From Gammaproteobacteria bacterium (GTDB lineage: Bacteria > Pseudomonadota > Gammaproteobacteria > UBA12402), in the NCBI GenBank assembly GCA_050123375.1, contig JASFHF010000001.1, forward strand, positions 34,475 to 98,474: a stretch of 64,000 bases of DNA, given 5' to 3'. Each line of letters opens with the position of its first letter. Position 1 is the stretch's first letter. This document shows, one piece after another, positions 1-6,386 of this stretch. A program made the translations under genes and the position numbers. The notes under the pieces are model-generated. The model saw only the letters and a list, made by a program, of their open reading frames with translations. It had not been told where the DNA came from and ran no database searches.

Positions 1-1
1 T

Positions 2-358
2 TCCCCCCCTTATGTGGGACAAATTGATTACCATGAACAACACGCCTACGCGTATGATCTTTTTGGCTTTAAACGCCATGATGACAAAGAAATTGGACCC
101 TTGTTTAAGGGACAGGGAGCAAAAGCACGAAATTCATATGTAAAAGGCATTACCAAAGTATTACAAAATTGCCGGGAATTTCTAGCCAAAGATTTCGATG
201 TGTTTTTAGTTGCCAATGATAAATATAACCTTTATCCTACAATTGCCGAACAAGCAAAAATGAAGATTGTAAATCAATTTAAACGGCCTGTATTAAATAG
301 AACTGAAAGGGCAAAATCACCTTATTCGGAAATAATATTTCACCTAAAGGACATATAA
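2..358 (+). CDS. 3' fragment of a DNA amino-methyltransferase (N6-adenine/N4-cytosine class); the gene continues upstream of the window
   Basis: The frame is open from window position 2. Codons 2-13 encode SPPY, the catalytic motif IV (D/N/S)PP(Y/F) of amino-MTases, and about 115 aa follow to the stop at 356-358. The ORF track starts at GTG 14 only because of the window edge. Confidence 0.55.
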   Translation, partial: SPPYVGQIDYHEQHAYAYDLFGFKRHDDKEIGPLFKGQGAKARNSYVKGITKVLQNCREFLAKDFDVFLVANDKYNLYPTIAEQAKMKIVNQFKRPVLNRTERAKSPYSEIIFHLKDI

Positions 359-360
359 AT

Positions 361-1140
361 ATGGCTCTACAAAAAAAAATGCAAGCCAAAATACACAAAT
401 TTTTTAAAGAAAAAATTTTAAAAAAAATTGAACAATATAATCTTCGTGATGAAGATGCAGCAAAACCTTTTCAATATGCACTTTTTACAAAAAAAGGTTA
501 TTTAGCAAAAGGATTTATTCACGGATGCGAAACAGCTTTGGGAAATTGGCACGAATCAATTGCAAAAATTATTGCCAAAGAAAACTTTGAAATAGCAAAA
601 AAATTACAAGGAACTGAAAAGCTAAAAGGAAGAATAACTAACAAAGCTCAAGCAACTTTTGAGAATATCCTTAACGATCTTGATAATGCAAAAAGAGAAC
701 CAAACCATAACAAAGAGTCTGAAGAAATTTATAATGCAAGTCAAAATGATAATAACTTTGTTAAAAGAAATCAAACTGTTGATTTGTATCTTAAACGTGA
801 TAATGGCGAAGAAATTTATTTCGAAATCAAAGGACCAAAACCAAACAAAAATGAAATGCGAGCTGCAAAAAGAGATCTTTTGGAAATTTATGCAATGCAA
901 GCAGCAGAAGGCAAAAGAATAAAAATATTCCTAGGTATGTATTATAACCCATATGCCCCGGAAAAATATCAACGTTGGACATGCATTAAGTTTTTTGACA
1001 AAGGAAATGACTTTTTAGTTGGTAAAGATTTTTGGGACTATCTTGGCGGAATCGGTACTTTTGAAAATTTAATTAGAATTTATGAAAAGGTTGGTGAAGA
1101 AATTAGACCGGCTTTAGAAAAAAAATTTAAAAAATTATAA
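361..1140 (+). CDS. putative type II restriction endonuclease partner of the upstream methyltransferase (inference), 259 aa
   Basis: The start lies 3 nt after the MTase stop, suggesting translational coupling. The region is very AT-rich and unlike the ndk flank. A candidate PD...(D/E)xK-like motif is 'VDLYLKRD...EEIYFEIKGPK'. No family could be assigned by eye. Confidence 0.35.
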   Translation: MALQKKMQAKIHKFFKEKILKKIEQYNLRDEDAAKPFQYALFTKKGYLAKGFIHGCETALGNWHESIAKIIAKENFEIAKKLQGTEKLKGRITNKAQATFENILNDLDNAKREPNHNKESEEIYNASQNDNNFVKRNQTVDLYLKRDNGEEIYFEIKGPKPNKNEMRAAKRDLLEIYAMQAAEGKRIKIFLGMYYNPYAPEKYQRWTCIKFFDKGNDFLVGKDFWDYLGGIGTFENLIRIYEKVGEEIRPALEKKFKKL

Positions 1141-1175
1141 CTACAAAAATAGACTAAGTAATAGGAGAAAACAAT

Positions 1176-1601
1176 ATGACAATCGAACGCACATTATCAA
1201 TAATCAAACCTGATGCTGTCGCTAAAAATTTAATTGGCACTATTCTATCCCGCTTTGAACAAGCCGGATTAAAAATTGTCGCCGCTAAAATGGTTCATCT
1301 AACTTCTGAACAAGGCGGAAAATTTTACGCAGTTCATAAAGAACGCCCCTTTTACAATGATCTTGTAACTTTCATCAGCTCAGGTCCTGTTATGGTACAA
1401 GTTCTTGAAGGTGAAAATGCAATTGCCAAAAACCGCGAAATCATGGGCGCAACCAATCCGGCAGAAGCAGCACCAGGCACCATCCGCGCTGACTTTGCAG
1501 AAAGTATTGACCGCAACGCAGTACATGGCTCTGATGCACCAGAAACTGCTAAACAAGAAATTGCGTTTTTCTTTAAAGAAAACGACATTTATTCAAGGTA
1601 A
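1176..1601 (+). CDS. ndk: nucleoside diphosphate kinase
   Basis: The full-length protein matches Ndk, with 'NAVHGSD' containing the catalytic His. A Shine-Dalgarno 'aggaga' lies upstream. Confidence 0.95.
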
Positions 1602-1640
1602 TATTATAAAAACATGCTTGTGTGCACCGCAGAGGAGATT

Positions 1641-1700
1641 GTTTGCAAACTCTTGAGCGCATGGAAGCGCGAACGAAGTATTACATGGATGTACTTTTCA
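1641..1700. repeat. GC-rich hairpin cluster with CAT-GG-ATG tip (family D, copy D0)
   Basis: 'gcgcatggaagcgcg' and 'agtattacatggatgtactt' form stem-loops with the same tip motif as D1-D4. Confidence 0.5.
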
Positions 1701-1784
1701 ATTACGCCAAGCATGTTGCGTAATTGAAAAGACGCGTTTGCAAATAAGCTCGCCGAAAGGTGCACTAAAAAGCATAACATTCTC

Positions 1785-4279: not shown

Positions 4280-4303
4280 AAATTCTCCAATATTTTTTGG
4301 GCC

Positions 4304-4408
4304 AATGCGAAAAGATGAGATGCGAGACAAAAGTGAGCGAAACATGCGAGTTTATAAACAATAAATGAGCATGTTGAGCGAACTTTTAACAAAGCAGATC
4401 GCTTTTCG
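4304..4408 (+). repeat. ME-2 MITE-like repeat, copy A
   Basis: The ~105-bp element 'gcgaaaagatgagatgcgagacaaaag...ttaacaaagcagatcgcttttcgc' has short terminal inverted repeats. Its end supplies the galU C-terminal codons and stop. Confidence 0.8.
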
Positions 4409-5270
4409 CATTGACCCAAATTTTTCTAAAATCATCTGCTAAATCTGCGCGCCTTAATGCATATTCAACTGTTGCATGTAAAAAACCAATTTTAGTGCCA
4501 CAATCATACCGAATACCATTAAATCTGCACGCATAAACATCTTCCTTTTGCATTAATGCAGCAATCCCATCCGTTAATTGAATTTCACCGCCGCTGCCTG
4601 GAGAAACTCGTTCTAATAAACTAAATATTTGTGGTTTTAACACATAACGGCCTACCACACCAAAATTTGATGGAGCATCTTGCGGCGTAGGCTTTTCTAC
4701 AATACCGTAAATTCTTGCCTTAGGATTTAATTCATCCCGCACATCAACTACACCATATTTTCTGCTGTTTTCCGGTTGAATCTGCTGCACGGCAACAACG
4801 CTGGAATCTGTTTGTTGATATATATCAATTAACTGCTGCAAACAAACTCGCTCTTTTGCATAAATCAAATCATCCGGTAATAAAACTGCAAACGGCTGAT
4901 CGCCCACAACTTCTTTAGCACATAAAACTGCATGCCCTAAACCCAAAGCTTCTTGCTGTTGCACAAAAACACATGTAATATTTTTTGGTAAAATATTTTT
5001 AACTTCATTTAAACTTTCTTGTTTATGTTGTGCTGTTAATACTTCTTCTAATTTAGCATCCGATGCAAAATGCTGTTCGATTGCAATTTTTGAACTATTA
5101 GTTACAAAAATCATCTCAGTGATACCAGCTGCAACTGCTTCATCAACTGCATATTGAATTAAAGGTTTATCTATAATTGGCAGCATTTCTTTAGGAACAG
5201 CTTTAGTCACCGGCAAAAACCTCGTACCTATTCCTGCTACCGGAAAAACTATTTTTTTAATTTCAGTCAT
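4386..5270 (-). CDS. galU: UTP--glucose-1-phosphate uridylyltransferase
   Basis: 'VFPVAGIGTRFLPVTKAVPKEMLPIIDKPLIQY' is the GalU signature. The last 7 codons 'AKSDLLC' and the stop are contributed by ME-2 copy A. Confidence 0.9.
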   Translation of the reverse strand: MTEIKKIVFPVAGIGTRFLPVTKAVPKEMLPIIDKPLIQYAVDEAVAAGITEMIFVTNSSKIAIEQHFASDAKLEEVLTAQHKQESLNEVKNILPKNITCVFVQQQEALGLGHAVLCAKEVVGDQPFAVLLPDDLIYAKERVCLQQLIDIYQQTDSSVVAVQQIQPENSRKYGVVDVRDELNPKARIYGIVEKPTPQDAPSNFGVVGRYVLKPQIFSLLERVSPGSGGEIQLTDGIAALMQKEDVYACRFNGIRYDCGTKIGFLHATVEYALRRADLADDFRKIWVNAKSDLLC

Positions 5271-5307
5271 TTATAACCCTCAATATGTGTTAACCACACA
5301 TGGCTGA

Positions 5308-5412
5308 CGCAAAAAGATGAGATGCGAGACAAAAGCGAGCGAAAAATGCGAGTTTATAAATAATAAATAAGCATTTTAAGCGAGCTTTTAACAAAGCAGA
5401 TCGCTTTTTGCG
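5308..5412 (+). repeat. ME-2 MITE-like repeat, copy B
   Basis: It is near-identical to copy A and overlaps the galE 3' end, supplying 'AKSDLLC*'. Confidence 0.8.
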
Positions 5413-6386
5413 CCAGCCATGTGACGTTCCCAACGCCAAGCATGTTCAATAATCGTAGCCAAATCAGCATATTTTGGCTGCCAATTAAGTTCCCGCTTAG
5501 CCTGCGTCGCATCTGCAACTAAAACTGCGGGATCGCCTGCCCGCCTTGGCGCATCAATAACAGTAAATGATCTTCCGGTTATACGTTTTGCCGTATCAAC
5601 AACTTCTTGCACCGAAAAACCATTACCATTCCCTAAATTATATTTTTTGCTAACCGGATTTTTCAACAAATTTTCCAATGCTGATAAATGCGCATCACAA
5701 AGATCTACTACATGAATATAATCACGAACACAAGTGCCATCTTCAGTATCATAATCCTTCCCAAAAATTTTCACATTATCACTTCTACCGCTAGCTGCCT
5801 GCAACACCAGCGGAATTAAATGAGTTTCCGGATCATGATGCTCACCAATTCGACATGAAGGCTCAACTCCTGCAGCATTAAAGTAGCGCAAGCATACCGA
5901 CTTCAAACCATACGCATAATCATAGTCATCTAAAATTTGTTCTACCATTAATTTACTTTTACCATATGGATTAATTGGATTTTTAGGATGTGCAATATCA
6001 ATCGGCGCATATTCCGGGTTACCATAAACTGCTGCGCTCGAAGAAAAAATAAAATTTTTAATATTTGCGACAAGCATTTCATCTAATAAATTCAAAGTAT
6101 TGCAAACATTATTGTGATAATATTTTGCAGGATCGATTACTGATTCACCAACTTGCGTAAATGCAGCAAAATGCATCACCGCAACAAATTGATGTTGATT
6201 AAATAACTGCTTAAGTAATTTTCGATCCGCCAAATCACCTTCAACAAACTCAGCATCTAATACCGCCTCGCGATGACCAGCAGATAGATTATCCAATACT
6301 ACTACGGAATAGTTATGCTTATGCAAAATATCCGCCATATGTGAACCAATATAACCAGCGCCACCAACAACCAAAATCTCATACAT
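5388..6386 (-). CDS. galE: UDP-glucose 4-epimerase
   Basis: 'VVGGAGYIGSH' is the NAD-binding motif and the YxxxK region is present. The protein matches GalE over its full length. Confidence 0.9.
   Translation of the reverse strand: MYEILVVGGAGYIGSHMADILHKHNYSVVVLDNLSAGHREAVLDAEFVEGDLADRKLLKQLFNQHQFVAVMHFAAFTQVGESVIDPAKYYHNNVCNTLNLLDEMLVANIKNFIFSSSAAVYGNPEYAPIDIAHPKNPINPYGKSKLMVEQILDDYDYAYGLKSVCLRYFNAAGVEPSCRIGEHHDPETHLIPLVLQAASGRSDNVKIFGKDYDTEDGTCVRDYIHVVDLCDAHLSALENLLKNPVSKKYNLGNGNGFSVQEVVDTAKRITGRSFTVIDAPRRAGDPAVLVADATQAKRELNWQPKYADLATIIEHAWRWERHMAGAKSDLLC

What the first reader, a model, noticed from the sequence alone, without database searches (positions are those of the whole stretch)
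1..1140. Amino-methyltransferase fragment plus a translationally coupled putative endonuclease in the most AT-rich part of the window: a type II restriction-modification module
The window opens inside a reading frame whose first codons encode SPPY, motif IV of N6A/N4C DNA methyltransferases. Its stop is followed 3 nt later by a 259-aa ORF with no housekeeping similarity. That ORF has a candidate PD...(D/E)xK arrangement (D...EIK). The region is clearly more AT-rich than ndk onward, as expected for horizontally acquired defence DNA.
Basis: partly seen in the sequence, partly recalled or inferred. Interest (0 to 1): 0.5.

Follow-up and report, generated by a model that had tools for sequence, protein, structure and literature searches.

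The report
Ordinary TdeIII/MjaII-type restriction-modification gene pair
The start of the window holds the end of a DNA methyltransferase gene and a complete restriction endonuclease gene of the known TdeIII/MjaII family, an ordinary and already annotated bacterial defence module acquired by horizontal transfer.

Summary
Window 2-358 encodes the last 118 residues of a DNA amino-methyltransferase, starting at SPPY (motif IV). A contig 100% identical to window 1-1250 supplies the rest: 528 aa, with motif I (DPFSGSGTT) upstream of motif IV, which is the alpha order. ORF 361-1140 is a full-length Pfam PF09520 (RE_TdeIII) protein (E 1.3e-56). Its AlphaFold model (pLDDT 95.7) is closest to EcoO109I, then to other PD-(D/E)xK restriction enzymes. 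E119, D141 and E155-I-K157 sit where the catalytic residues belong. The M-then-R pair, 1-5 nt apart or overlapping, recurs in 20 of 27 loci from Patescibacteria, Proteobacteria, Omnitrophota and an archaeon, at 60-82% identity and always in different surroundings. It is therefore a mobile module. The likely target is GGNCC with N4-methylcytosine; this is inferred, not shown. Two details of the finding are wrong. The gap is 2 nt, not 3. The region is not the most AT-rich part of the window, because 46-53 kb is lower in GC. NCBI already names both proteins, and the family is already classed as PD-(D/E)XK in the literature. Interest is low.

The parts
2..358 (+). 3' end of the DNA amino-methyltransferase gene: the last 118 codons plus the TAA stop. 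The full gene is 528 codons on the identical contig L001:1391-2977.
   Evidence: Translation. PADLOC MTase_II PDLC03249 matches positions 423-538 of 541, E 5.4e-60. L001 is 100% identical to window 1-1250. The full protein passes Pfam PF01555 at E 2.5e-18. It equals P0121, which NCBI names 'MAG: DNA methyltransferase [Gammaproteobacteria bacterium]'.
2..13 (+). Codons for S-P-P-Y, catalytic motif IV of amino-methyltransferases (residues 411-414 of the full protein).
   Evidence: Sequence. S411, P412, P413 and Y414 are invariant in 31-32 homologues.
347..351 (+). AAGGA, a Shine-Dalgarno-like sequence 9 nt upstream of the endonuclease ATG, lying inside the end of the methyltransferase gene.
   Evidence: Sequence. 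Similar AAAGGA sequences occur at the same place in L007, L008 and L009. Its function is inferred.
361..1140 (+). Type II restriction endonuclease gene of the TdeIII/MjaII family (259 aa plus stop).
715..717 (+). Codon of E119, a near-invariant glutamate in the helix before the core sheet; probable metal-binding or catalytic residue.
   Evidence: At least 90% conserved in the 55-sequence family alignment. Lies in helix 116-128 of the model. Aligns with a glutamate of Cas4 4ic1 in the profile match.
781..783 (+). Codon of D141, the 'D' of PD-(D/E)xK, at the start of core strand 140-145.
   Evidence: At least 90% conserved across the family and invariant in the subfamily. Strand position.
823..831 (+). 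Codons of E155-I156-K157, the (D/E)xK part of the motif, at the end of core strand 151-157.
   Evidence: Invariant in the subfamily. Family consensus is D-x-K, with some exceptions. Aligns to the E-I-K of Cas4 4ic1.

Best explanation
This is a two-gene type II (IIP-like) restriction-modification operon, M then R.

Methyltransferase. It is a 528-aa amino-methyltransferase, and only its last 118 codons lie in the window. Its motif order is X/I ... target-recognition region ... IV (SPPY), which is the alpha arrangement. It also has a small N-terminal domain that may be a winged helix-turn-helix. It uses S-adenosylmethionine to methylate an exocyclic amino group in a short palindromic site on the host DNA.

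Endonuclease. It is a 259-aa Mg2+-dependent PD-(D/E)xK enzyme of the TdeIII/MjaII family (Pfam PF09520). The probable active-site residues are E119, D141, E155 and K157. It probably acts as a homodimer and cuts the same site when it is unmethylated, for example on incoming phage or plasmid DNA.

Likely site. The site is most likely GGNCC, protected as N4-methylcytosine.

Expression. The R start codon lies 2 nt after the M stop, with a Shine-Dalgarno-like AAGGA inside the end of M. R is therefore probably made only by ribosomes that have just translated M, so methylase is made first.

Origin. The module was acquired horizontally. It sits between a tRNA-Ser(CGA) gene and ndk.

Shown: gene structure, family membership, fold, conserved residues, conserved gene pairing and spacing, patchy distribution across phyla and across the bacteria-archaea divide.
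Inferred: enzymatic activity, the recognition site, the methylated base, translational coupling, dimerisation.
For: REase:
- Pfam PF09520, 192 bits against a cut-off of 27.2, full model coverage.
- PADLOC REase_II models.
- AF2 model pLDDT 95.7 with the core order helix 116-128, strands 133-138, 140-145 and 151-157, helix 163-182, strand 188-193.
- E119 and D141 are near-invariant in 55 diverse homologues, and E155-x-K157 is mostly conserved. All four are invariant in the subfamily.
- PF09520 is already listed as the 'MjaII' group of PD-(D/E)XK type II enzymes (PMC3424549).
- TdeIII (TDE0911) is described as a documented type II restriction enzyme of T. denticola whose recognition sites are removed from shuttle plasmids to improve transformation (PMC12878829). 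The cited paper's title says that disrupting TDE0911 lets the strain accept an unmethylated shuttle vector (reference list).

MTase:
- The full gene lies on an identical contig.
- Pfam PF01555: residues 34-167 match profile positions 102-218, and the SPPY region matches the start of the profile.
- Motif I aligns to N4C and N6A DNA methyltransferase structures.

Pairing:
- In 22 of the 25 related genome loci an MTase homologue lies directly upstream on the same strand, mostly full-length. The exceptions are one locus cut at its end (L027), one archaeal locus with a distant MTase on the opposite strand (L028), and one with a second REase paralogue in between (L022). Every locus has different surroundings.
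- The gap between the two genes is 5 nt or less, or they overlap, in 20 of 27 loci.

Horizontal origin:
- The nearest relatives (80-82% identity) come from Patescibacteria, an uncultured gammaproteobacterium and other unnamed MAGs. A homologue at 76% identity is in Candidatus Altarchaeum.
- The REase has the lowest GC3 of 30 long ORFs in the window.
- A tRNA-Ser gene ends 131 nt upstream of the MTase start.
- None of 68 distant ndk loci has the module.

Site:
- The best structural match, EcoO109I, cuts RGGNCCY (established knowledge).
- TdeIII and MjaII are listed as GGNCC enzymes (my knowledge of REBASE and Pfam; not retrievable here).
- GGNCC has the lowest observed/expected ratio (0.65, z -5.5) of all 4-mer and XXNYY palindromes in 176 kb of DNA from carriers. 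GANTC is at 0.97.
- GGNCC has no fixed adenine, so an amino-methyltransferase must make m4C there. SPPY is the motif IV form typical of N4C enzymes (established knowledge).
Against: - No activity, methylation or cleavage data exist for this organism.
- In the 64-kb window itself GGNCC is not significantly avoided (37 observed against 43.6 expected).
- In the pooled test several other palindromes (GGCC, TATA, TCGA, GCNGC) are also depleted, with z-scores as large or larger. There was no control set of genomes lacking the module.
- Specificity can change within a restriction enzyme family at 30-40% identity, and I could not measure identity to TdeIII or MjaII themselves.
- One tool table labels PF09520 as 'HinfI'. 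If HinfI (GANTC) is a member, the family holds more than one specificity.
- The (D/E)xK triad is not invariant across the whole family.
- The MTase model is only moderately confident (pLDDT 67.9), so the N-terminal HTH is no more than a hint.
- No integrase and no flanking direct repeat of 8 nt or more was found, so the route of insertion is unknown.
Confidence: 0.9

Rival explanations
1. It is a working type II restriction-modification pair of this family, but with a recognition site other than GGNCC (for example GANTC or another G-x-N-x-C palindrome), and possibly with N6-adenine rather than N4-cytosine methylation.
For: Precomputed tables label PF09520 'HinfI'. GGNCC is not significantly avoided in the window. 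Family members can be as little as 25-40% identical. The PDB matches to motif I include both N4C and N6A enzymes.
Against: GANTC is not depleted in carriers (O/E 0.97), whereas GGNCC has the lowest ratio (0.65). The best structural match is the RGGNCCY enzyme EcoO109I. Motif IV is SPPY, invariant in homologues, which is the usual N4C form (established knowledge).
Confidence: 0.3
2. The module is a decaying or domesticated remnant. The endonuclease is inactive or silenced, and the methyltransferase acts as an orphan or regulatory methylase.
For: Related loci L002 and L003 carry an MTase broken into two ORFs that lacks residues 198-277, next to an intact REase gene. This shows that members of the family do decay. 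No activity data exist here.
Against: Both genes are full length compared with their homologues (528 and 259 aa). Every subfamily-invariant residue tabulated in A3, including E119, D141, E155, K157, N196 and W225, is by construction present in the window protein. The 2-nt coupling and the Shine-Dalgarno-like site are retained. The same sequence occurs unchanged in two independent samples.
Confidence: 0.07
3. The two ORFs are unrelated neighbours. ORF 361-1140 is a non-restriction PD-(D/E)xK protein (repair or recombination nuclease), and the methyltransferase acts alone.
For: PD-(D/E)xK folds serve many functions. The only PDB match found by sequence profile is Cas4 (E 0.055).
Against: The pair is kept together, in the same order and with 1-5 nt spacing or overlap, in 20 of 27 loci across many phyla and in different contexts. 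The top structural matches are restriction enzymes. The family's named member TdeIII is described as a type II restriction enzyme whose recognition sites must be removed from shuttle plasmids for transformation.
Confidence: 0.03

Closest known systems
TdeIII (TDE0911) with M.TdeIII (TDE0909) of Treponema denticola ATCC 35405, and MjaII of Methanocaldococcus jannaschii: the named members of Pfam PF09520
   Same: Same Pfam family, with full-length coverage. A two-gene type II system with an amino-methyltransferase partner. TdeIII is a documented restriction barrier to transformation. The family is already classed as PD-(D/E)XK with archaea-bacteria transfer. A homologous pair was reported as horizontally acquired in H. 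pylori PeCan4 (PMC3467074).
   Different: Identity to TdeIII or MjaII themselves could not be measured, because their sequences were not retrievable here. The host is an uncultured, roughly 37% GC gammaproteobacterium. The site and the methylated base are untested here.
EcoO109I (PDB 1wtd), a type IIP enzyme cutting RG^GNCCY
   Different: Only 17% identity, and no match by sequence or profile search of the PDB. EcoO109I has the shifted E-PD-xxK active-site variant (PMC3424549), whereas this protein keeps a canonical D...ExK in strands 2 and 3.
Beta-class N6/N4 amino-methyltransferases of Pfam PF01555 (for example M.PvuII, M.MboIIA, CcrM, DpnA)
   Same: Same motif I (DPFxGSGTT) and motif IV ((S/D)PPY) signatures. 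Motif I aligns to several solved members.
   Different: The motif order is circularly permuted. Here motifs X and I (residues about 98-145) come before a region of about 250 residues, and motif IV is at 411, 118 residues from the C-terminus. There is an extra N-terminal domain of about 60 residues.

Membership tests
Pfam PF09520 (RE_TdeIII / MjaII group) type II restriction endonucleases | Sequence match to the family profile above the curated gathering score, over the whole domain | tested here: met
   192.4 bits against a cut-off of 27.2, E 1.3e-56; protein residues 5-245 match profile positions 2-242 of 242.
Pfam PF09520 (RE_TdeIII / MjaII group) type II restriction endonucleases | Adjacent cognate DNA methyltransferase gene | tested here: met
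   The 528-aa N6_N4_Mtase gene ends 2 nt upstream. In 22 of 25 related genome loci an MTase homologue lies directly upstream on the same strand.
Pfam PF09520 (RE_TdeIII / MjaII group) type II restriction endonucleases | Site-specific cleavage at GGNCC | not testable with these tools
   Indirect support only: the structural neighbour EcoO109I, and GGNCC depletion in carriers at O/E 0.65. There is no significant depletion in the window itself.
PD-(D/E)xK nuclease superfamily | Alpha-beta-beta-beta-alpha-beta core fold | tested here: met
PD-(D/E)xK nuclease superfamily | Acidic residue at the start of core strand 2 and (D/E)xK in strand 3, conserved in homologues | tested here: met
   D141 is at least 90% conserved. 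E155-I-K157 is invariant in the subfamily and mostly conserved across the family. E119 is near-invariant.
DNA amino-methyltransferases (N6A/N4C), alpha arrangement | AdoMet-binding motif I (FxGxG type) | tested here: met
   D136-P-F-S-G-S-G-T-T on the identical contig. D136, P137, F138, G140, S141, G142 and T143 are invariant, and S139 is at least 90% conserved. The motif aligns to motif I of solved N4C and N6A enzymes. Pfam PF01555 E 2.5e-18.
DNA amino-methyltransferases (N6A/N4C), alpha arrangement | Catalytic motif IV (S/D/N)PP(Y/F) | tested here: met
   S411-P-P-Y414, which is window 2-13; invariant in homologues.
DNA amino-methyltransferases (N6A/N4C), alpha arrangement | Order: motif I, then the target-recognition region, then motif IV | tested here: met
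   Motif I is at about residue 136 and motif IV at 411 of 528. The Pfam profile (beta order) matches in two permuted pieces.
DNA amino-methyltransferases (N6A/N4C), alpha arrangement | Identity of the methylated base (N4-cytosine or N6-adenine) | not testable with these tools
   SPPY and a G/C-only site favour m4C, but this is an inference. The fold search of the MTase model found only generic class I SAM methyltransferases.

The most novel reading that the evidence does not exclude
The only mildly novel readings concern regulation and spread.
1. The N-terminal domain of the methyltransferase, about 60 residues and predicted as beta-alpha-alpha-beta-beta-alpha, may be a built-in DNA-binding controller. 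Together with the 1-5 nt M-R coupling, it would take the place of a separate C protein in timing endonuclease expression.
2. Nearly the same module (60-82% identity) occurs in Patescibacteria, Proteobacteria, Omnitrophota, Zixibacteria and an Altarchaeum archaeon. This may mark an unusually promiscuous exchange network, across phyla and between bacteria and archaea, in groundwater-type communities.
3. Here the module ends 35 nt before ndk with no terminator. The housekeeping gene ndk may now depend on read-through from the foreign operon.
Probability: 0.2. Interest if true: 0.3.

Novelty: already known. Interest (0 to 1): 0.08.

Why it matters
It matters little beyond annotation. The result confirms that this uncultured gammaproteobacterium carries an intact, horizontally acquired type II restriction barrier, probably GGNCC/m4C. 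That would be relevant to anyone trying to transform the organism or to interpret its methylome. It also adds one more case of a TdeIII/MjaII-type module shared between candidate-phyla bacteria, proteobacteria and archaea. No open question becomes testable because of it.

Tried and rejected
- Empty site in a close relative. A genome-contig scan with RlmN found no relative. A metagenome scan with Ndk found only relatives at 79% identity or less, with conserved ndk-rlmN but different upstream genes. The insertion boundaries could therefore not be defined.
- att-like direct repeats flanking the module. Nothing of 8 nt or more was found.
- Recognition site from palindrome avoidance in the window. 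No significant signal for GGNCC. Pooling 25 carrier loci gave a modest, non-exclusive signal.
- Literature on the TdeIII site and methylation type. Bian & Li 2011 and Johnston et al. 2023 are not held. Papers that mention both GGNCC and m4C concern m5C enzymes.
- PDB search by sequence and by profile for the REase. No significant hit; Cas4 at E 0.055 was the best.
- Fold search of the MTase model. Only generic SAM methyltransferases, and the model confidence is moderate.
- The first alignment-based genome scan failed because it lacked a sufficiently conserved stretch.
- Plasmids hold only distant family members, at 26-28% identity.
- Rejected: the idea that this is the most AT-rich part of the window.

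Full report
**Observation**

Reading the window from position 2 gives S-P-P-Y-V-G-Q... and continues for 118 codons to TAA at 356-358. An ATG at 361 opens a 259-codon ORF that ends at 1140. The spacer is 2 nt (AT), not 3. An AAGGA lies 9 nt before the ATG, at 347-351.

GC is 0.313 for 1-1140 against 0.368 for the rest of the window. However, 112 of 1258 sliding 1140-nt windows are lower, and the true minimum (0.27-0.28) is near 49-51 kb. The claim 'most AT-rich part of the window' is therefore wrong. At gene level the deviation is real. The endonuclease ORF has the lowest GC3 (0.174) and the second-lowest GC of the 30 ORFs of at least 250 aa in the window. The methyltransferase gene has a GC of 0.308, with only 3 of those ORFs lower.

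**The endonuclease**

- ORF 361-1140 matches Pfam PF09520 (RE_TdeIII) end to end: 192 bits, cut-off 27.2, E 1.3e-56. It also matches three PADLOC 'REase_II' models.
- The identical protein is already in NCBI as 'MAG: TdeIII family type II restriction endonuclease [Gammaproteobacteria bacterium]'.
- A scan of 1.8 billion representative proteins found 536 relatives at E 0.001 or better.
- In an alignment of 55 diverse relatives (25-80% identity), N196 and W225 are invariant. P36, F37, G61, E119, D141, N162, K170, L174, Y195, P197 and Y203 are at least 90% conserved.
- In the close subfamily, D141, E155, I156 and K157 are invariant.
- An AlphaFold2 model built on that alignment is very confident (pLDDT 95.7, pTM 0.91). 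It shows helix 116-128, strands 133-138, 140-145 and 151-157, helix 163-182 and strand 188-193. That is the PD-(D/E)xK core, with D141 at the start of the second strand and E155-x-K157 in the third.
- Sequence and profile searches of the PDB give nothing significant. The best is Cas4 (4ic1, E 0.055), aligned across E...D...EIK.
- Steczkiewicz et al. 2012 (PMC3424549) already list PF09520 as the 'MjaII' group of PD-(D/E)XK type II enzymes, with a patchy distribution and archaea-bacteria transfer.
- TdeIII is TDE0911 of Treponema denticola. It is described as a type II restriction enzyme whose recognition sites are removed from shuttle plasmids to allow transformation (PMC12878829). The partner methyltransferase is TDE0909 (PMC8265222).

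**The methyltransferase**

The window holds only the C-terminal 118 residues. They match PADLOC MTase_II model PDLC03249 at positions 423-538 of 541 (E 5.4e-60).

A Logan contig (L001, 4003 bp) is 100% identical to window 1-1250 and extends upstream. A 105-kb JGI contig has the same gene order. The full gene encodes 528 aa and passes Pfam N6_N4_Mtase (E 2.5e-18).

Residues 34-167 match the C-terminal part of that beta-order profile, including H-P-Y-K-G-K and D-P-F-S-G-S-G-T-T at 136-144. The SPPY region matches the start of the profile. The order is therefore motif X/I, then about 250 residues, then motif IV, which is the alpha arrangement. Motif I aligns to solved N4C and N6A enzymes.

The AF2 model of the whole protein is only moderate (pLDDT 67.9). 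Residues 7-60 are predicted as strand-helix-helix-strand-strand-helix, which hints at a winged helix-turn-helix. A Foldseek search found only generic class I SAM methyltransferases.

**Pairing and mobility**

A scan of GTDB species genomes with a subfamily alignment found 25 loci.

- In 22 of these 25 loci an MTase homologue at 55-82% identity lies directly upstream on the same strand, mostly full-length. The exceptions are L027 (cut at the locus end), L028 (an archaeal locus with a distant MTase on the opposite strand) and L022 (a second REase paralogue lies in between).
- The stop-to-start gap is 5 nt or less, or the genes overlap, in 20 of 27 loci.
- Carriers include Patescibacteria (Saccharibacteria, Moranbacteria, Falkowbacteria), Peregrinibacteria, Alpha- and Gammaproteobacteria, Zixibacteria, Omnitrophota and Candidatus Altarchaeum. 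The flanks differ in every case, and none has ndk or rlmN next to the module.
- In this organism a tRNA-Ser(CGA) gene ends 131 nt before the MTase start.
- The REase stop is 35 nt from the ndk start, with no terminator-like site.
- I found no integrase and no flanking repeat of 8 nt or more.
- No close relative of the host exists in the collections searched. Among 68 distant ndk loci, ndk-rlmN is conserved, but none has the module or a tRNA upstream.

**Specificity**

This part is inferred.

- From my knowledge of REBASE and Pfam, TdeIII and MjaII cut GGNCC and EcoO109I cuts RGGNCCY.
- GGNCC has no fixed adenine, so an amino-methyltransferase must make m4C there. SPPY is the usual N4C form of motif IV.
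- In 176 kb pooled from 25 carrier loci, GGNCC has the lowest observed/expected ratio of all 4-mer and XXNYY palindromes (0.65, z -5.5), and GANTC is at 0.97. Other palindromes are also depleted, and I had no control set without the module.
- In the window alone the signal is not significant (37 against 43.6).
- One tool table labels PF09520 'HinfI'. I therefore keep a different site as a live rival.

**Verdict**

This is an intact, ordinary type II restriction-modification operon of a known family, and it is already named as such in public annotation. Only two details are wrong: the spacing and the AT-richness rank. Novelty: already known. Interest: low.

Noticed in passing
L001:1167-1259 (upstream of the window start; same organism): A tRNA-Ser(CGA) gene lies 131 nt upstream of the methyltransferase start, so the module sits between a tRNA gene and ndk. 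No integrase and no flanking direct repeat of 8 nt or more was found.
   Followed up: partly
window 1602-1784: The ndk-rlmN intergenic region folds into a long imperfect hairpin (-63 kcal/mol, z -5.7 against shuffles). One arm occurs only once in the window. Its function is unknown.
   Followed up: partly
window 24789, 26050, 26165, 30601, 35067, 39317, 39842, 42125, 53822, 60258 (each about 70-75 nt): A family of palindromic intergenic repeats of the form GGGACG..GCTTTACAT.ATTACAA...TTGTAAT.ATGTAAAGC..CGTCCC, resembling REP or MITE hairpins, with at least 10 copies in 64 kb.
   Followed up: no
window 4296-4419, 5298-5421, 61334-61457: A 124-nt repeat in three copies (81-83% identity). Two copies overlap the 3' ends of the galU-like and galE-like genes, so both proteins end in AKSDLLC.
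   Followed up: no
window 46373-53134 (-): A 2253-aa ORF with no Pfam match at E 0.001 or better. It lies in the truly most AT-rich block of the window (GC 0.28-0.31), between queA and htpG. It may be a giant surface or effector protein.
   Followed up: partly
L022:1591-4777 (Candidatus Zixiibacteriota MAG): The methyltransferase is followed by two endonuclease paralogues of this family, one at 32% and one at 64% identity to the window protein.
   Followed up: no
L002:3672-5798 and L003: In a 1.3-Mb contig the methyltransferase is split into two ORFs and lacks residues 198-277, while the endonuclease gene (78% identity) looks intact. This is either a decaying module or an assembly artefact.
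   Followed up: no
L016 (Candidatus Altarchaeum sp. MAG): An archaeal genome carries the same M-R pair at 71% and 76% identity to the gammaproteobacterial copy. This indicates recent transfer between bacteria and archaea.
   Followed up: no
whole window: GGCC (60 observed against 88 expected, z -3.0) and CTAG (56 against 84) are the most under-represented short palindromes in the window. The GGCC deficit could point to another restriction system elsewhere in the genome.
   Followed up: no
tool output, searches compared: PF09520 is named 'HinfI' in the precomputed Pfam table but 'RE_TdeIII' in the hmmscan library. This is either a renaming or a sign that HinfI-type enzymes belong to the same family.
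   Followed up: no
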